Assembly (NCBI GenBank): GCA_964430135.1
Contig: CAYSEG010000001.1
Coordinates: 5,959-59,802, forward strand
Length of the DNA stretch: 53,844 bases
Origin: an uncultured Candidatus Saccharibacteria bacterium
GTDB taxonomy: Bacteria > Patescibacteriota > Minisyncoccia > JAHIHE01 > DAOWLE01
Reading direction: 5' to 3'
Positions 9,734-23,700 of the stretch are shown in pieces (position 1 is the stretch's first letter; every line of letters begins with the position of its first letter). Both the position numbers and the translations under genes were made by a program. The notes below the pieces were generated by a model. The model was not told the origin of the DNA. It did no database searches and saw only the letters and a program-made list of their open reading frames with translations.

Positions 9734-9804
9734 TGGACCTAGGCAGAATCGGACTGCCGTCTCCGCCGTGCAAAGGCGGTATTCTACCATTAAACTATAG
9801 GCCC
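9734..9804 (-). tRNA. tRNA-Ala (anticodon UGC)
   Basis: Minus strand GGGCCTATAGTTTAATGGTAGAATACCGCCTTTGCACGGCGGAGACGGCAGTCCGATTCTGCCTAGGTCCA. G3:U70 identity pair, anticodon loop TTTGCAC, no encoded CCA. The T-loop TCCGATT is atypical. Confidence 0.75.
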
Positions 9805-9888
9805 ATGCAATCTTAACCGTATTTTGAAGCGGTATTGCCGCGTCTGCTCCCCACTACAGCAAATCTTTACAAATGTTAATTAAAATAG

Positions 9889-9960
9889 CACCGCCACGGG
9901 GAATCGAACCCCGGTTGCCAGGATGAAAACCTGATGTCCTAACCACTAGACGATGGCGGC
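9889..9960 (-). tRNA. tRNA-Glu (anticodon UUC)
   Basis: Minus strand GCCGCCATCGTCTAGTGGTTAGGACATCAGGTTTTCATCCTGGCAACCGGGGTTCGATTCCCCGTGGCGGTG. Cloverleaf folds by hand, with a G1:U72 wobble. Confidence 0.8.
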
Positions 9961-10239
9961 ATTATATCTAAATTATTTTATGGCGTGAAAATAAATAAAA
10001 CCTGAAGTTCTAGACTGATTTATCATTACTACAATCTAAACAAATCTAGTGCGCGAATTAAATTCATTTAAACCACAAAGGAGTCGCTTCGCGACCCTAT
10101 GGGCATGCCTTCATTATTATTTTACTAAATTTAACCCCCATAAATTAAAATTTTAGTATAGGAAGTTTAGCCGCAAAAACTACCAAGGTCTAATTGAACA
10201 AAATTCTGATATCTTCTGATTACCCGTTTCCGAAACTAT

Positions 10240-10316
<77 letters not shown>

Positions 10317-21660: not shown

Positions 21661-22745
21661 CATGTTATTCCATAATTACTTATGGCACGGACTATACCAT
21701 TTCCCATTTGGTAGCTGGAAAAAAGAGAGAAGAAAATAAATTTATTTTATTATTCTCTTCTTTTTTTATGTTTTTAATTCTTGGTAAAACGCTTCTCTGA
21801 TTTTTAGAATATCTTGCCGCGTATCTATGTAAAATTTCTGCCAAAATCATGGCTCTTTCTGGATCTTCTGTATAACATTTTTTCCATACTTCTTTTATTT
21901 CTGAATCGCTCGCTTTTATTACCCACTCTCTGACGATTTATTCCTGCTTATATGCTTTTTGTTCGTATTTAAGACAAGCGGCTATATGATTCATTACCTC
22001 ATCTTCTTCATTCGTTTTTGGTTCTTTGTCTTTGTACTACTAAAAACGTAACAAGAGATATTGCACTAATACTTACTACTCCTGCAATCCAAATGCCTAT
22101 CAAAAACGAAATTACCTTTAAGTAAATCAAAAATGCTATAACTATTAAAGCTCCGTCTGCTACCATCTCTATTTTTTTTATTTCTCTCATTTTTCATCTC
22201 CTTTTCCCAGCCACCAATTTTTGGGAACCAGCGTGTAATGATAGGTTAAAAGCTACCATTAAACTCTCTTAGCCCTAGCGAGAGTTAAGTCTCTACGGGG
22301 TCAAGCGCACCTCGCTACTGCTTGGTGCTAAACTCAAAAATCAAATCTCAAAAATCAAAAATACAAATGAAAAATTAAAAATTTTATATTTTACATTATC
22401 ATTTTGCCTGCCTGCCGGCAGGTAGGTATTTTGATTTTTGCATTTTGAATTTAGGTTGTTTTAAACAACCGCTGACTTCCCACGGTATCACCCATCCACT
22501 GCTCCGCAGTGGAAATTCCAAATCCCAATTTCCAAATTTCAAACAAATTTCAAATTCAAATTTTGAAAAATTCAAAACAAATTTTCTTTTCATTTTGTCT
22601 TAATCATTTGAATTCTGAATTTTAGATTTGTTTCGGATTTCGGATTTTGAATTTGGTGCTTCCATTGCGAAGCAATGGCTTGGGTTTCACCGTTATGAGC
22701 TGGTTTTTTCACTAAGGATTACTCCTTAGTGGGTCATCTTTCAAT
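21661..22745 (-). other. ~1085-nt intervening sequence, putative group I-like intron, in the GCATGGYTGTCGTCAGC region
   Basis: The upstream exon ends ...GCATGGTT (U) and the insert ends ...AACATG (G) before GTCGTCAGC. A possible P1 is GGTT|attgaaagat-GACC with a U:G at the junction. Many short hairpins. The ORF loop is closed by ggtagc/gctacc. AT-rich repeats are inserted in peripheral parts. Confidence 0.55.
22008..22190 (-). CDS. small 2-TM hydrophobic protein encoded inside the 16S intervening sequence
   Basis: 60-aa ORF MREIKKIEMVADGALIVIAFLIYLKVISFLIGIWIAGVVSISAISLVTFLVVQRQRTKNE, preceded by AAGGAG-7nt-ATG. Confidence 0.4.
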   Translation of the reverse strand: MREIKKIEMVADGALIVIAFLIYLKVISFLIGIWIAGVVSISAISLVTFLVVQRQRTKNE

Positions 22746-22842
22746 AACCATGCAGCACCTGTCACCGGGTTTCCTAAAAGGACACTCCTCCCTTTCAGGA
22801 GGATTCCCGGGATTTCAAGCCCTGGTAAGGTTCCTCGCTTAT

Positions 22843-23326: not shown

Positions 23327-23700
23327 CTCAAATTAGCAGCTGATTTGTAGTTGTTAAATATTTTTATTGACTGAATTCAAGCTTTAGCCTGCAAATTTTA
23401 CACCCTAAAGGGTGAACTCCAAGAAAAAGAAAAAATAGGCGGGAGATAAAAGAAAATTTATTTATCTCCCCTTTTTACTTATTTCAAATATTTCCTCCTG
23501 TAGTTTTTTGATAGTATCAACTATCCAGCTTATCTCAATATTTCTTGGCACTGTAAAAGAAACGCCTCTGCTGCTTACTTCAAATCTTCTTCTATCGCTT
23601 AACTCTCTTATTCTTACACGGATTACCACATCCATTTTTTCTTTTCTTTCTTTTTTCATTTTTTGTGATTTTAGCAACCACAAAACAGCCACTAATCTTG
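23327..23700 (-). other. ~375-nt insertion in the V3 hairpin of the 16S gene
   Basis: Lies between ...GTAAAGCTCTTTTCTTAGAGAA and TGAGCGTATCTAAGGAATAAGG. Contains ORF 23462-23692, hairpin gggagataaa..tttatctccc (23441-23470), and an antisense partial copy of the E-family repeat (about 23345-23420). Confidence 0.7.
23462..23692 (-). CDS. hypothetical small basic protein encoded in the 16S V3 insertion
   Basis: 76-aa ORF (more likely starts MKKERKEKMDVV...). No clear SD and no recognisable family. Confidence 0.25.
   Translation of the reverse strand: MAVLWLLKSQKMKKERKEKMDVVIRVRIRELSDRRRFEVSSRGVSFTVPRNIEISWIVDTIKKLQEEIFEISKKGR

What the first reader, a model, noticed from the sequence alone, without database searches (positions are those of the whole stretch)
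21661..22745. ~1.1-kb group-I-like intron in 16S with repeat elements nested inside it
The boundaries fit group I rules. The upstream exon ends in U (GCATGGTT). The insert ends in G (...AACATG) just before GTCGTCAGC. A short P1 (GGTT / GACC) with a U:G at the splice site can be drawn 10 nt into the insert.

The insert contains many tight hairpins (cactaagga/tccttagtg, ccattgc/gcaatgg, ccactgc/gcagtgg, ggttgtt/aacaacc). A ggtagc/gctacc closure brackets the ORF-containing loop.

Two AT-rich palindromic repeats sit in peripheral regions (about 22340-22450, carrying the cctgcctgccggcaggtagg core, and 22530-22650). This suggests secondary invasion of the intron by the genome's MITE-like repeats.
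Basis: partly seen in the sequence, partly recalled or inferred. Interest (0 to 1): 0.6.

Follow-up and report, generated by a model that had tools for sequence, protein, structure and literature searches.

The report
Group I intron swollen by nested repeats
The 1.1-kb insert in this small-genome bacterium's only 16S rRNA gene is a real group I intron that has lost its homing-endonuclease gene and taken up three foreign pieces in its outer loops, an unusual variant of a known kind of rRNA intron.

Summary
The insert is real. It occupies window 22745..21661 on the minus strand, inside the genome's single assembled 16S gene, between ...GCATGGTT and GTCGTCAGC....

Rfam finds no intron in it. Homology does. 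15 of 120 loci from a pattern scan carry related introns at exactly this 16S site.

The closest ORF-less relative (L144, 267 nt) shares 74.5% identity over 302 aligned columns, 40 of them exon. It scores 51.7 bits on Rfam Intron_gpI, above the 50-bit cut-off.

Covariation supports P2 to P9, including the P3/P7 pseudoknot and a P7.1/P7.2 extension.

Against these relatives, the window's intron is a roughly 250-nt core plus three nested blocks:
- a 184-nt palindrome in L5;
- a repeat in L6 from a dispersed family with about 50 genomic loci;
- a 506-nt cassette in L8 holding two orphan ORFs.

There is no homing-endonuclease gene, whereas 8 of 9 long frames in same-site relatives are LAGLIDADG_3.

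Splicing itself is untested. This is a new variant of a known kind (CPR rRNA introns; the "MITEtron").

The parts
21661..22745 (-). Whole group I intron, 1085 nt. The 5' splice site follows U22746. The terminal (omega) G is at 21661.
   Evidence: Homologs at the same site.
22732..22749 (-). P1. Exon GGUU (22749..22746) pairs with the internal guide GACC (22735..22732), with U.G at the splice site. The stem extends by AUU/GAU and is capped by GAAA.
   Evidence: The splice-site pair is UG in 14 of 16 same-site introns and UA in 2. The Rfam alignment of L144 draws the same P1.
22710..22731 (-). P2 hairpin (cactaagga / tccttagtg).
   Evidence: All 8 pairs show changes on both sides across 16 introns.
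22699..22703 (-). P3 5' strand, CCAGC. It pairs with GCUGG at 22232..22228.
   Evidence: 4 of 5 pairs have changes on both sides; 5/5 pairs appear in the core-only MFE.
22688..22693 (-). P4 5' strand, ACGGUG. It pairs with UACCGU at 22487..22482.
   Evidence: This helix is invariant in the family, because it was the search pattern.
22496..22679 (-). Nested element 1, a 184-nt AT-rich palindrome with GC-rich end hairpins. It sits in L5, between P5 strands CCC (22684..22682) and GGG (22493..22491).
   Evidence: Absent from 4 ORF-less homologs. Folds as one long hairpin closed by P5: -67.8 kcal/mol, z -7.3. A second full copy lies inside the 23S rRNA gene at C12:1367-1549.
22298..22481 (-). P6 domain. 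It comprises P6 (GGG.. / ..CCC plus UCAGCG / CGCUUGA), the P6a hairpin (22470..22454), and nested element 2.
   Evidence: fold -58.7 kcal/mol, z -5.5.
22330..22455 (-). Nested element 2, an AT-rich palindromic repeat in L6. It carries a GC palindrome (22426..22407) that is unique in the genome.
   Evidence: Absent from ORF-less homologs. The family has about 50 loci in the genome. The 12-mer core occurs once in the genome. In relatives this loop holds the LAGLIDADG_3 gene.
22288..22300 (-). J6/7 and the P7 5' strand (CCCCGUAG-A-GACU, the classical R block). G22293[A]GACU pairs with AGUCC at 21693..21689, forming a pseudoknot with P3.
   Evidence: the outer pair is AU in 12, GC in 5 and UA in 2, never unpaired.
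22238..22286 (-). P7.1 (22286..22262) and P7.2 (22259..22238), two hairpins between P7 and the P3 3' strand.
   Evidence: 7 of 7 and 5 of 7 pairs have changes on both sides. In the Rfam alignment of L144 this stretch is a 62-nt insertion relative to the model.
22228..22232 (-). P3 3' strand, GCUGG.
21701..22227 (-). P8 (UUCCCA 22227..22222 / UGGGAA 21706..21701), enclosing the L8 cassette.
   Evidence: 6 of 6 pairs have changes on both sides. P8 is a short hairpin in the relatives L144 and L116.
21710..22215 (-). Nested element 3, a 506-nt cassette in L8. It has 9-nt inverted ends, GGUGGCUGG (22215..22207) and CCAGCUACC (21718..21710).
   Evidence: Window-only run against homologs. Unique in the genome except for its terminator end. 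Present unchanged in two further metagenome contigs.
22008..22190 (-). ORF1, 60 aa, hydrophobic (two likely membrane spans by eye). AAGGAG lies 7 nt upstream, at 22203..22198.
   Evidence: No family found. Only near-identical database hits.
21692..21994 (-). ORF2, 100 codons, broken here by an in-frame TAA at 21940..21938. It is intact (GAA, Glu) in a 99%-identical contig. It ends at the TAG inside the J8/7-P7 block.
   Evidence: No family or distant relative found.
21719..21762 (-). Terminator-like AT-rich hairpin followed by UUUUUU, at the 3' end of the cassette and in the sense of the rRNA.
   Evidence: -11.3 kcal/mol, z -3.6. A match 88% identical over about 60 nt lies downstream of a small ORF next to smpB, at C4:27090-27153. 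The terminator scan did not flag it.
21689..21700 (-). J8/7 and the P7 3' strand (AUGGUAUAGUCC, the classical S block).
   Evidence: GUAUAGUCC is invariant in the 16 same-site introns.
21670..21686 (-). P9 hairpin with a GUAA loop.
   Evidence: 5 of 6 pairs have changes on both sides and 97.9% of cells are paired.

Best explanation
The insert is a group I intron of the P7.1/P7.2-bearing (IA-like) type. It sits in the 5' strand of 16S helix 34, after the U that matches about position 1060 of E. coli. It belongs to a large intron family found in the rRNA genes of small-genome (CPR/Patescibacteria-titled) bacteria.

How it most likely works:
1. It is transcribed as part of the pre-16S RNA, and its roughly 250-nt core folds (inferred).
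2. A free guanosine bound in P7 attacks the U.G pair of P1 (inferred).
3. The terminal G then takes its place and the exons are joined, restoring GCAUGGUU-GUCGUCAGC (inferred).
4. Because this is the only assembled 16S gene and the break lies within a conserved helix strand, removal with ligation must work in vivo (inferred).

What the comparisons show:
- Same-site relatives spread through a LAGLIDADG_3 homing endonuclease encoded in L6.
- This copy has no such gene, and the genome has none, so it is now inherited vertically.
- Its three outer loops have each taken up foreign DNA: a 184-nt palindrome in L5, a dispersed AT-rich palindromic repeat in L6, and a 506-nt cassette in L8 with two small orphan ORFs, a ribosome-binding site and a terminator-like hairpin.
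- Each block folds on itself or is closed by its own stem. They therefore only lengthen P5, P6 and P8 and leave the catalytic core intact.
For: Place and copy number:
- The boundaries sit at a junction that is uninterrupted in 11 of 15 relatives' 16S loci.
- All 16S matches in the genome lie at one locus.
- The genome is 96.6% complete.

Homology:
- 15 of the 120 pattern-scan loci have introns at the same site.
- The window's intron is 74.5% identical to L144 over 302 columns.

Rfam:
- The L144 intron scores 51.7 bits, E 2.7e-10, across the full model.
- RF00028 overlapped the family core in 7 of 10 loci scanned at E<=1.
- The intron in L031 scored 24.8 bits, E 0.004.

Covariation:
- On 19 ORF-less cores, 95.4% of cells are paired, against 34-43% when partners are slid by 1-3 columns. 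10 of 25 pairs have double changes, and 0 of 500 shuffles reach the observed score.
- On 16 same-site introns including the window, P7.1, P7.2, P8 and P9 are 86% paired, with 23 of 26 pairs double-changed and 0 of 500 shuffles as high.
- P1 and P2 are 82% paired, and the splice-site pair is U.G in 14 of 16.

Other support:
- The two best hits of my own family model in the whole 53.8-kb window both fall inside the insert, on the minus strand and in the right order (E 1.8e-4 and 2.7e-4).
- The core-only MFE reproduces P2, P3, P4, P5, P7.1, P7.2 and P9 in full and P8 in 5 of 6 pairs.
- The terminal base is G in 14 of 16 introns, the window's included.

Nested blocks:
- They are absent from the homologs and multi-copy elsewhere.
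- They fold as self-contained hairpins.

Not an assembly artefact:
- L168 is identical over the whole intron.
- L167 covers its 3' 804 nt with 5 changes inside the intron.

No endonuclease:
- tblastn with 8 LAGLIDADG_3 frames finds nothing in the genome at E<=1e-3.
- In the intron it finds only a 13-aa overlap with the conserved core.
Against: - Rfam gives no group I match in the window itself at E<=10, or in the whole-genome RF00028 search.
- My own model gives only two split, weak hits of 22 bits each.
- Rfam also missed three of the four ORF-less same-site homologs: L096 and L104 at E<=0.01 and L085 at E<=1.
- No RNA data could be had, so excision and ligation are unproven (no RNA holder listed).
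- A terminator-like hairpin with a U6 tail lies in the sense orientation inside the intron. If it is effective, it would cut off the 3' third of the 16S.
- 835 nt of foreign RNA might slow or misdirect folding.
- Two of the 16 same-site introns end in A rather than G, so not every family member obeys the rule.
- The core-only MFE does not draw P1, and draws P6 in a shifted register.
Confidence: 0.88

Rival explanations
1. It is a group I intron by descent, but it no longer self-splices. It needs a host or intron-encoded protein (perhaps ORF1 or ORF2), or splices poorly, because the three nested blocks and the loss of the endonuclease/maturase have crippled folding.
For: - 835 of the 1085 nt are foreign.
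- The endonuclease gene that relatives carry is gone.
- LAGLIDADG proteins can act as maturases (stated in the introduction of PMC11270868).
- ORF2 is already broken in this strain.
Against: - Every conserved core block and every helix is intact.
- Four ORF-less relatives persist at the same site without any protein gene.
- There is only one 16S locus, so removal must be efficient enough for life.
Confidence: 0.2
2. It is an intervening sequence cut out by RNase III without ligation, leaving a fragmented 16S rRNA.
For: - Long, near-perfect AT-rich hairpins of the kind RNase III cleaves are present.
- The same repeat families sit in variable loops of the mature 16S and in the 23S.
- PMC11270868 considers such sequences likely among unclassified CPR insertions.
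Against: - The insert sits within a conserved helix strand, not at a helix tip.
- It carries a complete, covarying group I core with U.G and terminal G.
- The long hairpins are internal to the insert. They do not pair its two ends.
Confidence: 0.03
3. This 16S copy is a dead gene or a mis-assembly. A working intron-less copy exists but was not assembled, or the repeats were joined in wrongly.
For: - The genome is a 60-contig draft.
- rRNA genes and repeats are often badly assembled.
Against: - Apart from the inserts, the exons match the bacterial 16S model end to end, at 760 and 282 bits.
- One further metagenome contig (L168) is colinear over the whole intron with no difference inside it. Another (L167) covers its 3' 804 nt with 5 differences inside it.
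- CPR genomes usually have one rRNA copy (PMC11270868).
Confidence: 0.04

Closest known systems
[quoted passage not shown] 2015, recalled and as cited; Tsurumaki et al. 2024, PMC11270868, sections read)
   Same: - Sits at a highly conserved rRNA site in a single-copy gene of a small genome.
- ORF-containing and ORF-less forms at one site share a near-identical core.
- LAGLIDADG_3 is the endonuclease, reported only in 16S insertions. It is found here in 8 of 9 long frames at this site.
   Different: - This copy has no endonuclease gene. Instead it holds three unrelated nested blocks.
- The paper does not mention repeats or transposable elements (0 occurrences).
- It classed insertions with the Rfam model, which misses this intron and 3 of its 4 ORF-less site-mates.
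- I could not see which numbered site (16IS1-10) matches about position 1060, because the supplements are closed.
'MITEtron': the dsrA group I intron carrying a MITE in Candidatus Thiomargarita nelsonii (Flood et al. 2016, PMC4853749, passages read)
   Same: - A genome-wide hairpin-forming repeat without a transposase is nested in a peripheral part of a group I intron.
- The intron acts as a harmless landing place.
   Different: - That case lies in a protein gene and has one MITE in the P9 region.
- This case lies in 16S rRNA and has two palindromic elements (L5, L6) plus an ORF cassette (L8).
- No direct repeats were seen at the element ends here.
L2593-type rRNA group I introns with a P7.1/P7.2 extension (Synechococcus LSU introns, PMC1995217, passage read) and the subgroup IA phage introns (Twort, recalled)
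   Same: - Short P2 and short P5.
- An extension of about 60-65 nt after P7 that forms two hairpins.
   Different: - The host site differs (16S helix 34).
- Assignment to a subgroup was not tested with subgroup models.
IStrons (group I intron plus IS element; Tourasse et al. 2014, listing and abstract seen)
   Same: A chimera of a self-splicing intron and a DNA mobile element, in which splicing makes the insertion harmless.
   Different: - There is no transposase in the intron.
- The nested blocks lie in L5, L6 and L8, not at the 3' end.
- The intron is site-specific in rRNA, not dispersed.
Self-splicing 16S introns of giant sulfur bacteria (Salman et al. 2012, not held, recalled)
   Same: Group I introns in bacterial 16S genes, some of them with LAGLIDADG genes.
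   Different: By my recall the sites differ (795, 1078, 1396, 1495), and no nested repeats were reported.

Membership tests
Group I intron | P1 formed by the 5' exon end and an internal guide, with a U.G wobble at the splice site | tested here: met
   GGUU/GACC with U22746.G22735. The splice-site pair is UG in 14 of 16 same-site introns and UA in 2.
Group I intron | Terminal guanosine (omega G) at the 3' end of the intron | tested here: met
   G21661. 14 of 16 same-site introns end in G. L098 and L144 end in A.
Group I intron | Conserved core helices P3-P8 with the P3/P7 pseudoknot, supported by covariation | tested here: met
   P4 never varies, because it was the search pattern, so it says nothing either way.
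Group I intron | P7 guanosine-binding helix with a bulged base, and the R and S sequence blocks | tested here: met
   G[A]GACU / AGUCC. The outer pair covaries (AU 12, GC 5, UA 2) and the four inner pairs are invariant. The likeness to the Tetrahymena P7 and to the R/S consensus is recalled, not computed.
Group I intron | Score at or above the Rfam RF00028 gathering cut-off (50 bits) | tested here: not met
   No match in the window at E<=10. The cut-off is met by the closest homolog without nested blocks, L144, at 51.7 bits. The miss here is explained by the 835 nt of insertions.
Group I intron | GTP-dependent self-splicing with exon ligation | not testable with these tools
   No RNA run was listed.
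Subgroup IA-like (P7.1/P7.2) | Two extra hairpins following P7 | tested here: met
   P7.1 and P7.2 lie between P7 and the P3 3' strand and covary. This stretch is an insertion relative to the Rfam consensus. Subgroup-specific models were not available.
Mobile (homing) group I intron | Intron-encoded homing endonuclease | tested here: not met
   No LAGLIDADG_3 remnant in the intron or the genome. ORF1 and ORF2 match no endonuclease family.
MITE / REP-like dispersed repeat (the nested L5 and L6 elements) | Many dispersed copies, no coding capacity, and palindromic or terminal-inverted structure | tested here: met
   108 merged loci on 29 contigs for the four rRNA-borne queries together. The elements fold as long hairpins. 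The copies seen are 50-125 nt.
MITE / REP-like dispersed repeat (the nested L5 and L6 elements) | Target-site duplication and a matching transposase | tested here: inconclusive
   I saw no direct repeats at the ends (by eye). A Y1 (IS200/RAYT-type) transposase frame exists on C56 at 48.5 bits, but no link to the repeats is shown.
RNase III-processed intervening sequence | Replaces the tip of a variable helix, and its ends pair into a long stem | tested here: not met
   The insert lies within a conserved strand, and its ends form P1 and P9 of an intron rather than a common stem.

The most novel reading that the evidence does not exclude
The intron serves as a safe harbour that gathers other mobile DNA.
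- The 506-nt L8 block, with its 9-nt inverted ends, own ribosome-binding site, two orphan ORFs and terminator, would be a new kind of small mobile cassette that rides in intron loops.
- The AT-rich palindromes, which also sit in 16S V1 and V2 and in the 23S gene, would be moved by the genome's Y1 (HUH) transposase into DNA that encodes RNA hairpin loops.
- If so, part of the long 'uncharacterised' rRNA insertions of CPR bacteria would be such composite introns that Rfam cannot see.
Probability: 0.15. Interest if true: 0.6.

Novelty: new variant of a known kind. Interest (0 to 1): 0.42.

Why it matters
- It shows how far a ribozyme's outer loops can be loaded. Three quarters of this intron is foreign, yet it sits in the only 16S gene of a 0.92-Mb genome, so it must still be removed cleanly.
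- It gives a concrete reason why model-based surveys under-count introns in CPR rRNA genes. The Rfam model missed this intron and three of its four short site-mates. The published survey classed 35% of 16S insertions as group I and left long ones unexplained (PMC11270868).
- It is a natural test case for how the loss of a homing endonuclease is followed by decay and re-colonisation of an intron.
- It would be a second example, after the Thiomargarita dsrA 'MITEtron', of repeats nesting in a group I intron.

Tried and rejected
Searches that gave nothing:
- Direct Rfam scans of the window, of the 16S stretch and of the 5' half of the insert gave no intron family. The whole-genome RF00028 search gave only two weak hits elsewhere. 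I do not read these as absence, because the homologs show the core.
- A BLAST-type search of the insert in 60 relatives found only the AT-rich repeats and the exons, never the core. Homologs came only after comparing 16S loci that were split at the same model position.
- RNA evidence: no RNA holder was listed.
- Brown 2015 and Salman 2012 are not held. What I say of them is recalled, or taken from papers that cite them.
- Supplements are closed. The numbered insertion sites of PMC11270868 (its Fig. S1 and tables) may already list this site.
- On whether repeats nested in CPR rRNA introns are in print: searches listed no paper whose title or abstract start mentions them. Of those listings I opened only PMC9297842, PMC11270868 and PMC4853749, and PMC11270868 holds neither 'repeat' nor 'transposable'.

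ORF function:
- Pfam, PHROGs, NCBIfam, the Atlas, the word-index search and the full HMMER search gave only sub-threshold or self hits.
- PADLOC was not searched.
- The weak SLATT_1 hit for ORF1 (E 0.16) and the likeness of ORF2 to the small ORF beside smpB (21 aa, E 0.011 in a two-sequence search) are not significant. I dropped both.

Ideas dropped or left open:
- The ggtagc/gctacc closure is rejected.
- A P10 pairing (GAU with exon GUC) can be drawn for the window and for L144, but by eye it did not hold in other site-mates. It was not counted.
- Preference of the repeats for rRNA genes: 5 of 108 loci lie in rRNA genes. I did not measure non-coding space, so no enrichment is claimed.
- The GC palindrome of the L6 copy shares GGCAGG...CCTGCC arms and a 10-mer with a hairpin next to the Y1 transposase frame on C56. 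This is a lead only.
- My covariance model R1 gave only two split hits and was not used further.
- Alignment A1 used 19 of the 26 ORF-less cores listed. The seven longest (L052, L074, L077, L105, L113, L122, L131) were left out to stay under 400 columns. L159 was dropped earlier as a false motif match.
Full report
WHAT IS THERE

The window's 16S rRNA gene lies on the minus strand, from about 24428 to about 21205. Rfam's bacterial SSU model covers it in pieces because of four insertions.
- About 159 nt at model position ~82.
- About 123 nt at model position ~188.
- About 356 nt at model position ~455.
- The insert under study.

The insert under study runs 22745..21661 (1085 nt). It lies between ...ACAGGUGCUGCAUGGUU and GUCGUCAGCUUGUG....

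In an E. coli 16S copy of 1544 nt, the matching point falls between T1061 and G1062. That is about 1060/1061 in the usual numbering, in the 5' strand of helix 34. Both the usual numbering and the helix name are recalled.

Eleven of 15 relatives' 16S loci that I fetched read straight through this point, among them the same-family genome G001. Two are interrupted there (L031, L032). L041 does not reach the site, and L042 was not resolved.

The genome has 924,829 bases in 60 contigs and is 96.6% complete. All of its 16S matches lie at this one locus.

RFAM SAYS NOTHING, HOMOLOGY SAYS GROUP I

No Intron_gpI or group II family matches the window at E<=10. This holds for the 3.5-kb stretch, for the 536-nt 5' half, and for a whole-genome RF00028 search. 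A DNA search of 60 relatives found only the AT-rich repeats and the exons.

Two relatives' 16S genes, however, break at the same model position. Their inserts share four blocks with the window's, and all end ...AUG|GUCGUCAGC:
- CUCAUAACGGUG
- AUACCGUGGGAAG
- CCCCGUAGAGACUU
- GGUAUAGUCC

Most are titled CPR/Patescibacteria MAGs, and they lie in both 16S and 23S genes.

Fifteen of the 120 lie at exactly this 16S site:
- Four are ORF-less, at 255-286 nt (L085, L096, L104, L144).
- One is 438 nt.
- Ten are 679-916 nt.

Eight of the nine long open frames in these introns are LAGLIDADG_3, and they lie in L6.

MEMBERSHIP

- L144's 267-nt intron scores 51.7 bits (cut-off 50, E 2.7e-10) on RF00028 over the whole model. 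Rfam's alignment draws P1, P2, P3, P4, P5, P6, P8 and P9 where I had placed them. A 62-nt insertion falls between the P7 block and the P3 3' strand.
- The window's intron, taken with 20 nt of exon on each side, is 74.5% identical to L144 over 302 aligned columns.
- RF00028 overlapped the family core at E<=1 in 7 of 10 loci scanned. It missed L085, L070 and L086. It also missed L096, L104 and L148 at E<=0.01. The Rfam model therefore detects this sub-family only weakly.

COVARIATION

On 19 ORF-less cores from several rRNA sites (alignment A1), RNAalifold found P3, P4, P5 and P6 by itself. For my structure including P7 as a pseudoknot:
- 95.4% of cells pair, against 34-43% when partners are slid by 1-3 columns.
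- 10 of 25 pairs change on both sides.
- No shuffle of 500 reaches the observed score.
- The outer P7 pair, across a bulged base, is AU in 12, GC in 5 and UA in 2, and is never unpaired.
- P4 never varies, because it was the search pattern.

On the 16 same-site introns, the window's included (A3, A4):
- P7.1, P7.2, P8 and P9 pair in 86% of cells, with 23 of 26 pairs changed on both sides.
- All 8 pairs of P2 are changed on both sides.
- The splice-site pair is U.G in 14 of 16.
- The last base is G in 14 of 16, the window's included.

These sequences are kin, so the shuffle figures overstate independence. The slid-partner control does not have that weakness.

ANATOMY OF THE WINDOW'S COPY

Helix coordinates are and in the parts list. 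Against the four ORF-less site-mates, the window has three extra regions.

1. 22679..22496, in L5.
   - A 184-nt palindrome with GC-rich end hairpins. Together with P5 it folds as one hairpin of -67.8 kcal/mol, z -7.3.
   - Its only other full copy in the genome lies inside the 23S rRNA gene on contig C12.
2. 22474..22302, in L6.
   - This region holds the P6a hairpin and a member of an AT-rich palindromic family with about 50 loci in the genome. That copy is interrupted by a GC palindrome that occurs once in the genome.
   - This is the loop that holds the endonuclease gene in relatives.
3. 22215..21710, in L8. This is a 506-nt cassette closed by GGUGGCUGG / CCAGCUACC, and it contains:
   - AAGGAG, then a 60-codon hydrophobic ORF.
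   - A 100-codon ORF that carries an in-frame TAA here.
   - A weak hairpin followed by U6.

In the relatives L116 and L144, P8 is a plain short hairpin.

With the three blocks removed inside a script, the 249-nt core (folded with 17 exon nt) gives an MFE of -95.8 kcal/mol, z -7.9 against mononucleotide shuffles.
- P2, P3, P4, P5, P7.1, P7.2 and P9 appear in full, and P8 in 5 of 6 pairs.
- P7 cannot appear because it is a pseudoknot.
- P1 is not drawn, and P6 is drawn in a shifted register.

My family model R1 gave its two best hits in the whole window inside the insert: 22512..22200 and 21768..21686, both on the minus strand, at E 1.8e-4 and 2.7e-4.

NOT AN ARTEFACT, AND A LITTLE POPULATION DATA

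Two metagenome contigs carry the same intron with its nested blocks.
- L168 covers the whole intron and is identical inside it.
- L167 covers only its 3' 804 nt (22464..21661), so it holds most of the L6 block and the L8 cassette but not the L5 palindrome. It differs from the window at six places: five in the L8 cassette and one in exon 2.
- One of L167's changes turns the TAA of ORF2 into GAA. That matches the intact 100-aa protein P0001 in the protein collection.
- The cassette therefore varies while the rest of the intron does not, and ORF2 is breaking down in the window's strain. The numbers are small.

NO ENDONUCLEASE, ORPHAN CARGO

- tblastn with eight LAGLIDADG_3 frames finds nothing in the genome at E<=1e-3. 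Within the intron it finds only a short overlap with the conserved core.
- The family's core blocks occur only once in the genome.
- ORF1, ORF2 and the ORF of the third 16S insertion match no Pfam, PHROG or NCBIfam family at useful E-values.
- ORF2 has no relative among 1.84 billion representatives other than its own fragment, and none in the Atlas.

MECHANISM

Shown:
- The site, the homology, the covarying core, the U.G pair, the terminal G and the P7 pocket sequence.
- The nested blocks are absent from homologs and multi-copy elsewhere.
- There is no endonuclease gene.

Inferred:
- The intron is cut out with ligation by the usual two transesterifications. The break lies in a conserved helix strand of the only 16S gene, so anything less would be lethal.
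- The blocks entered after the intron did.
- They are tolerated because each folds on itself distal to P5, P6 or P8.

Open:
- Whether splicing needs a protein.
- Whether the sense-strand terminator-like hairpin is read through.
- How the palindromes move.

A Y1 (IS200/RAYT-type) transposase frame exists on C56 at 48.5 bits, with a GC hairpin beside it that resembles the core of the L6 copy. No link between them is shown.

COMPARISON WITH WHAT IS KNOWN

- Group I introns with or without LAGLIDADG genes at conserved sites of CPR 16S and 23S genes are described in PMC11270868 (abstract and sections 3 and 5 read) and PMC9297842 (passages). Brown 2015 is recalled and known to me through those papers.
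- PMC11270868 used the Rfam model and classed 35% of 16S insertions as group I. It left long unclassified insertions unexplained. It mentions no repeats.
- A MITE nested in a group I intron has been described once that I found: the dsrA 'MITEtron' of Thiomargarita (PMC4853749, passages).
- A P7.1/P7.2 extension with short P2 and P5 is described for the L2593 rRNA introns of cyanobacteria (PMC1995217, passage).

The intron as such is therefore a member of a known kind. The composite of two palindromic elements and a non-endonuclease ORF cassette in three separate loops of an endonuclease-less 16S intron is a new variant.

VERDICT

Interest is moderate. The case is a neat, extreme example and a warning about model-based intron surveys, but the principle is not new.

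Noticed in passing
window 24335-24195 and 24095-23960 (minus strand): Two further insertions in the same 16S gene are copies or half-copies of the same AT-rich palindromic repeat families, which have about 84 and 53 loci in the genome. They are about 159 nt at Rfam model position ~82 and about 123 nt at ~188, in the variable regions V1 and V2 (region names recalled). They lie at helix tips, so they may stay in the mature rRNA or be cut out by RNase III.
   Followed up: partly
window 23705-23340 (minus strand): A third 16S insertion of about 356-366 nt sits at model position ~455, at a helix tip. It holds a 76-codon ORF (23692..23462) followed by a GC-stemmed hairpin and a U-run (-14 kcal/mol). 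It is unique in the genome and matches no Pfam, PHROG or NCBIfam family and no intron model.
   Followed up: partly
G000 contig C12:1367-1549: The only other full copy of the 184-nt L5 palindrome lies inside the 23S rRNA gene, between the parts that match positions 577 and 727 of a relative's 23S.
   Followed up: partly
G000 contig C56:1426-1767 (L169) and C30:270-443 (L170): There is a Y1 (IS200/IS605 or RAYT-type) transposase frame of 179 aa at 48.5 bits, and a weaker second one. The C56 stretch is GC-rich for this genome. It has a GGCAGG-CAAAGA-CCTGCC hairpin next to the gene that resembles the GC palindrome in the intron's L6 repeat.
   Followed up: partly
G000 contig C4:27395-27090 (L007): An 83-aa ORF just downstream of smpB ends in a hairpin and U-run matched at 88% identity over about 60 nt by the 3' end of the intron's L8 cassette. 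The proteins are not significantly alike.
   Followed up: partly
L096, L065/L032, L119, L070, L054: Some relatives' rRNA genes hold many introns at once. L096's 16S shows three RF00028 hits (86.7, 40.3 and 39.2 bits) and a group II domain hit, besides the Rfam-invisible intron at this site. L119's 23S shows five RF00028 hits.
   Followed up: no
relatives G001-G060: 51 of the 61 genomes scored (G000 plus 60 relatives) matched the 1201-nt query, which held the intron and 116 nt of flanking exon, at E<=0.001. Most of the listed matches fall on the AT-rich repeat parts of the query and come from several families of the class. Some matches are only to the exons, so this is not a count of genomes holding the repeats. 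Part of the likeness may come from the low-complexity UUUUGA periodicity.
   Followed up: no
window 24673-24646 (minus strand): A near-consensus promoter-like site (TTGACA, 16 nt, TATTAT; 11 of 12 matches) lies about 220 nt upstream of the 16S 5' end.
   Followed up: no
window 9734-10316 (minus strand): Three tRNA genes.
   Followed up: no
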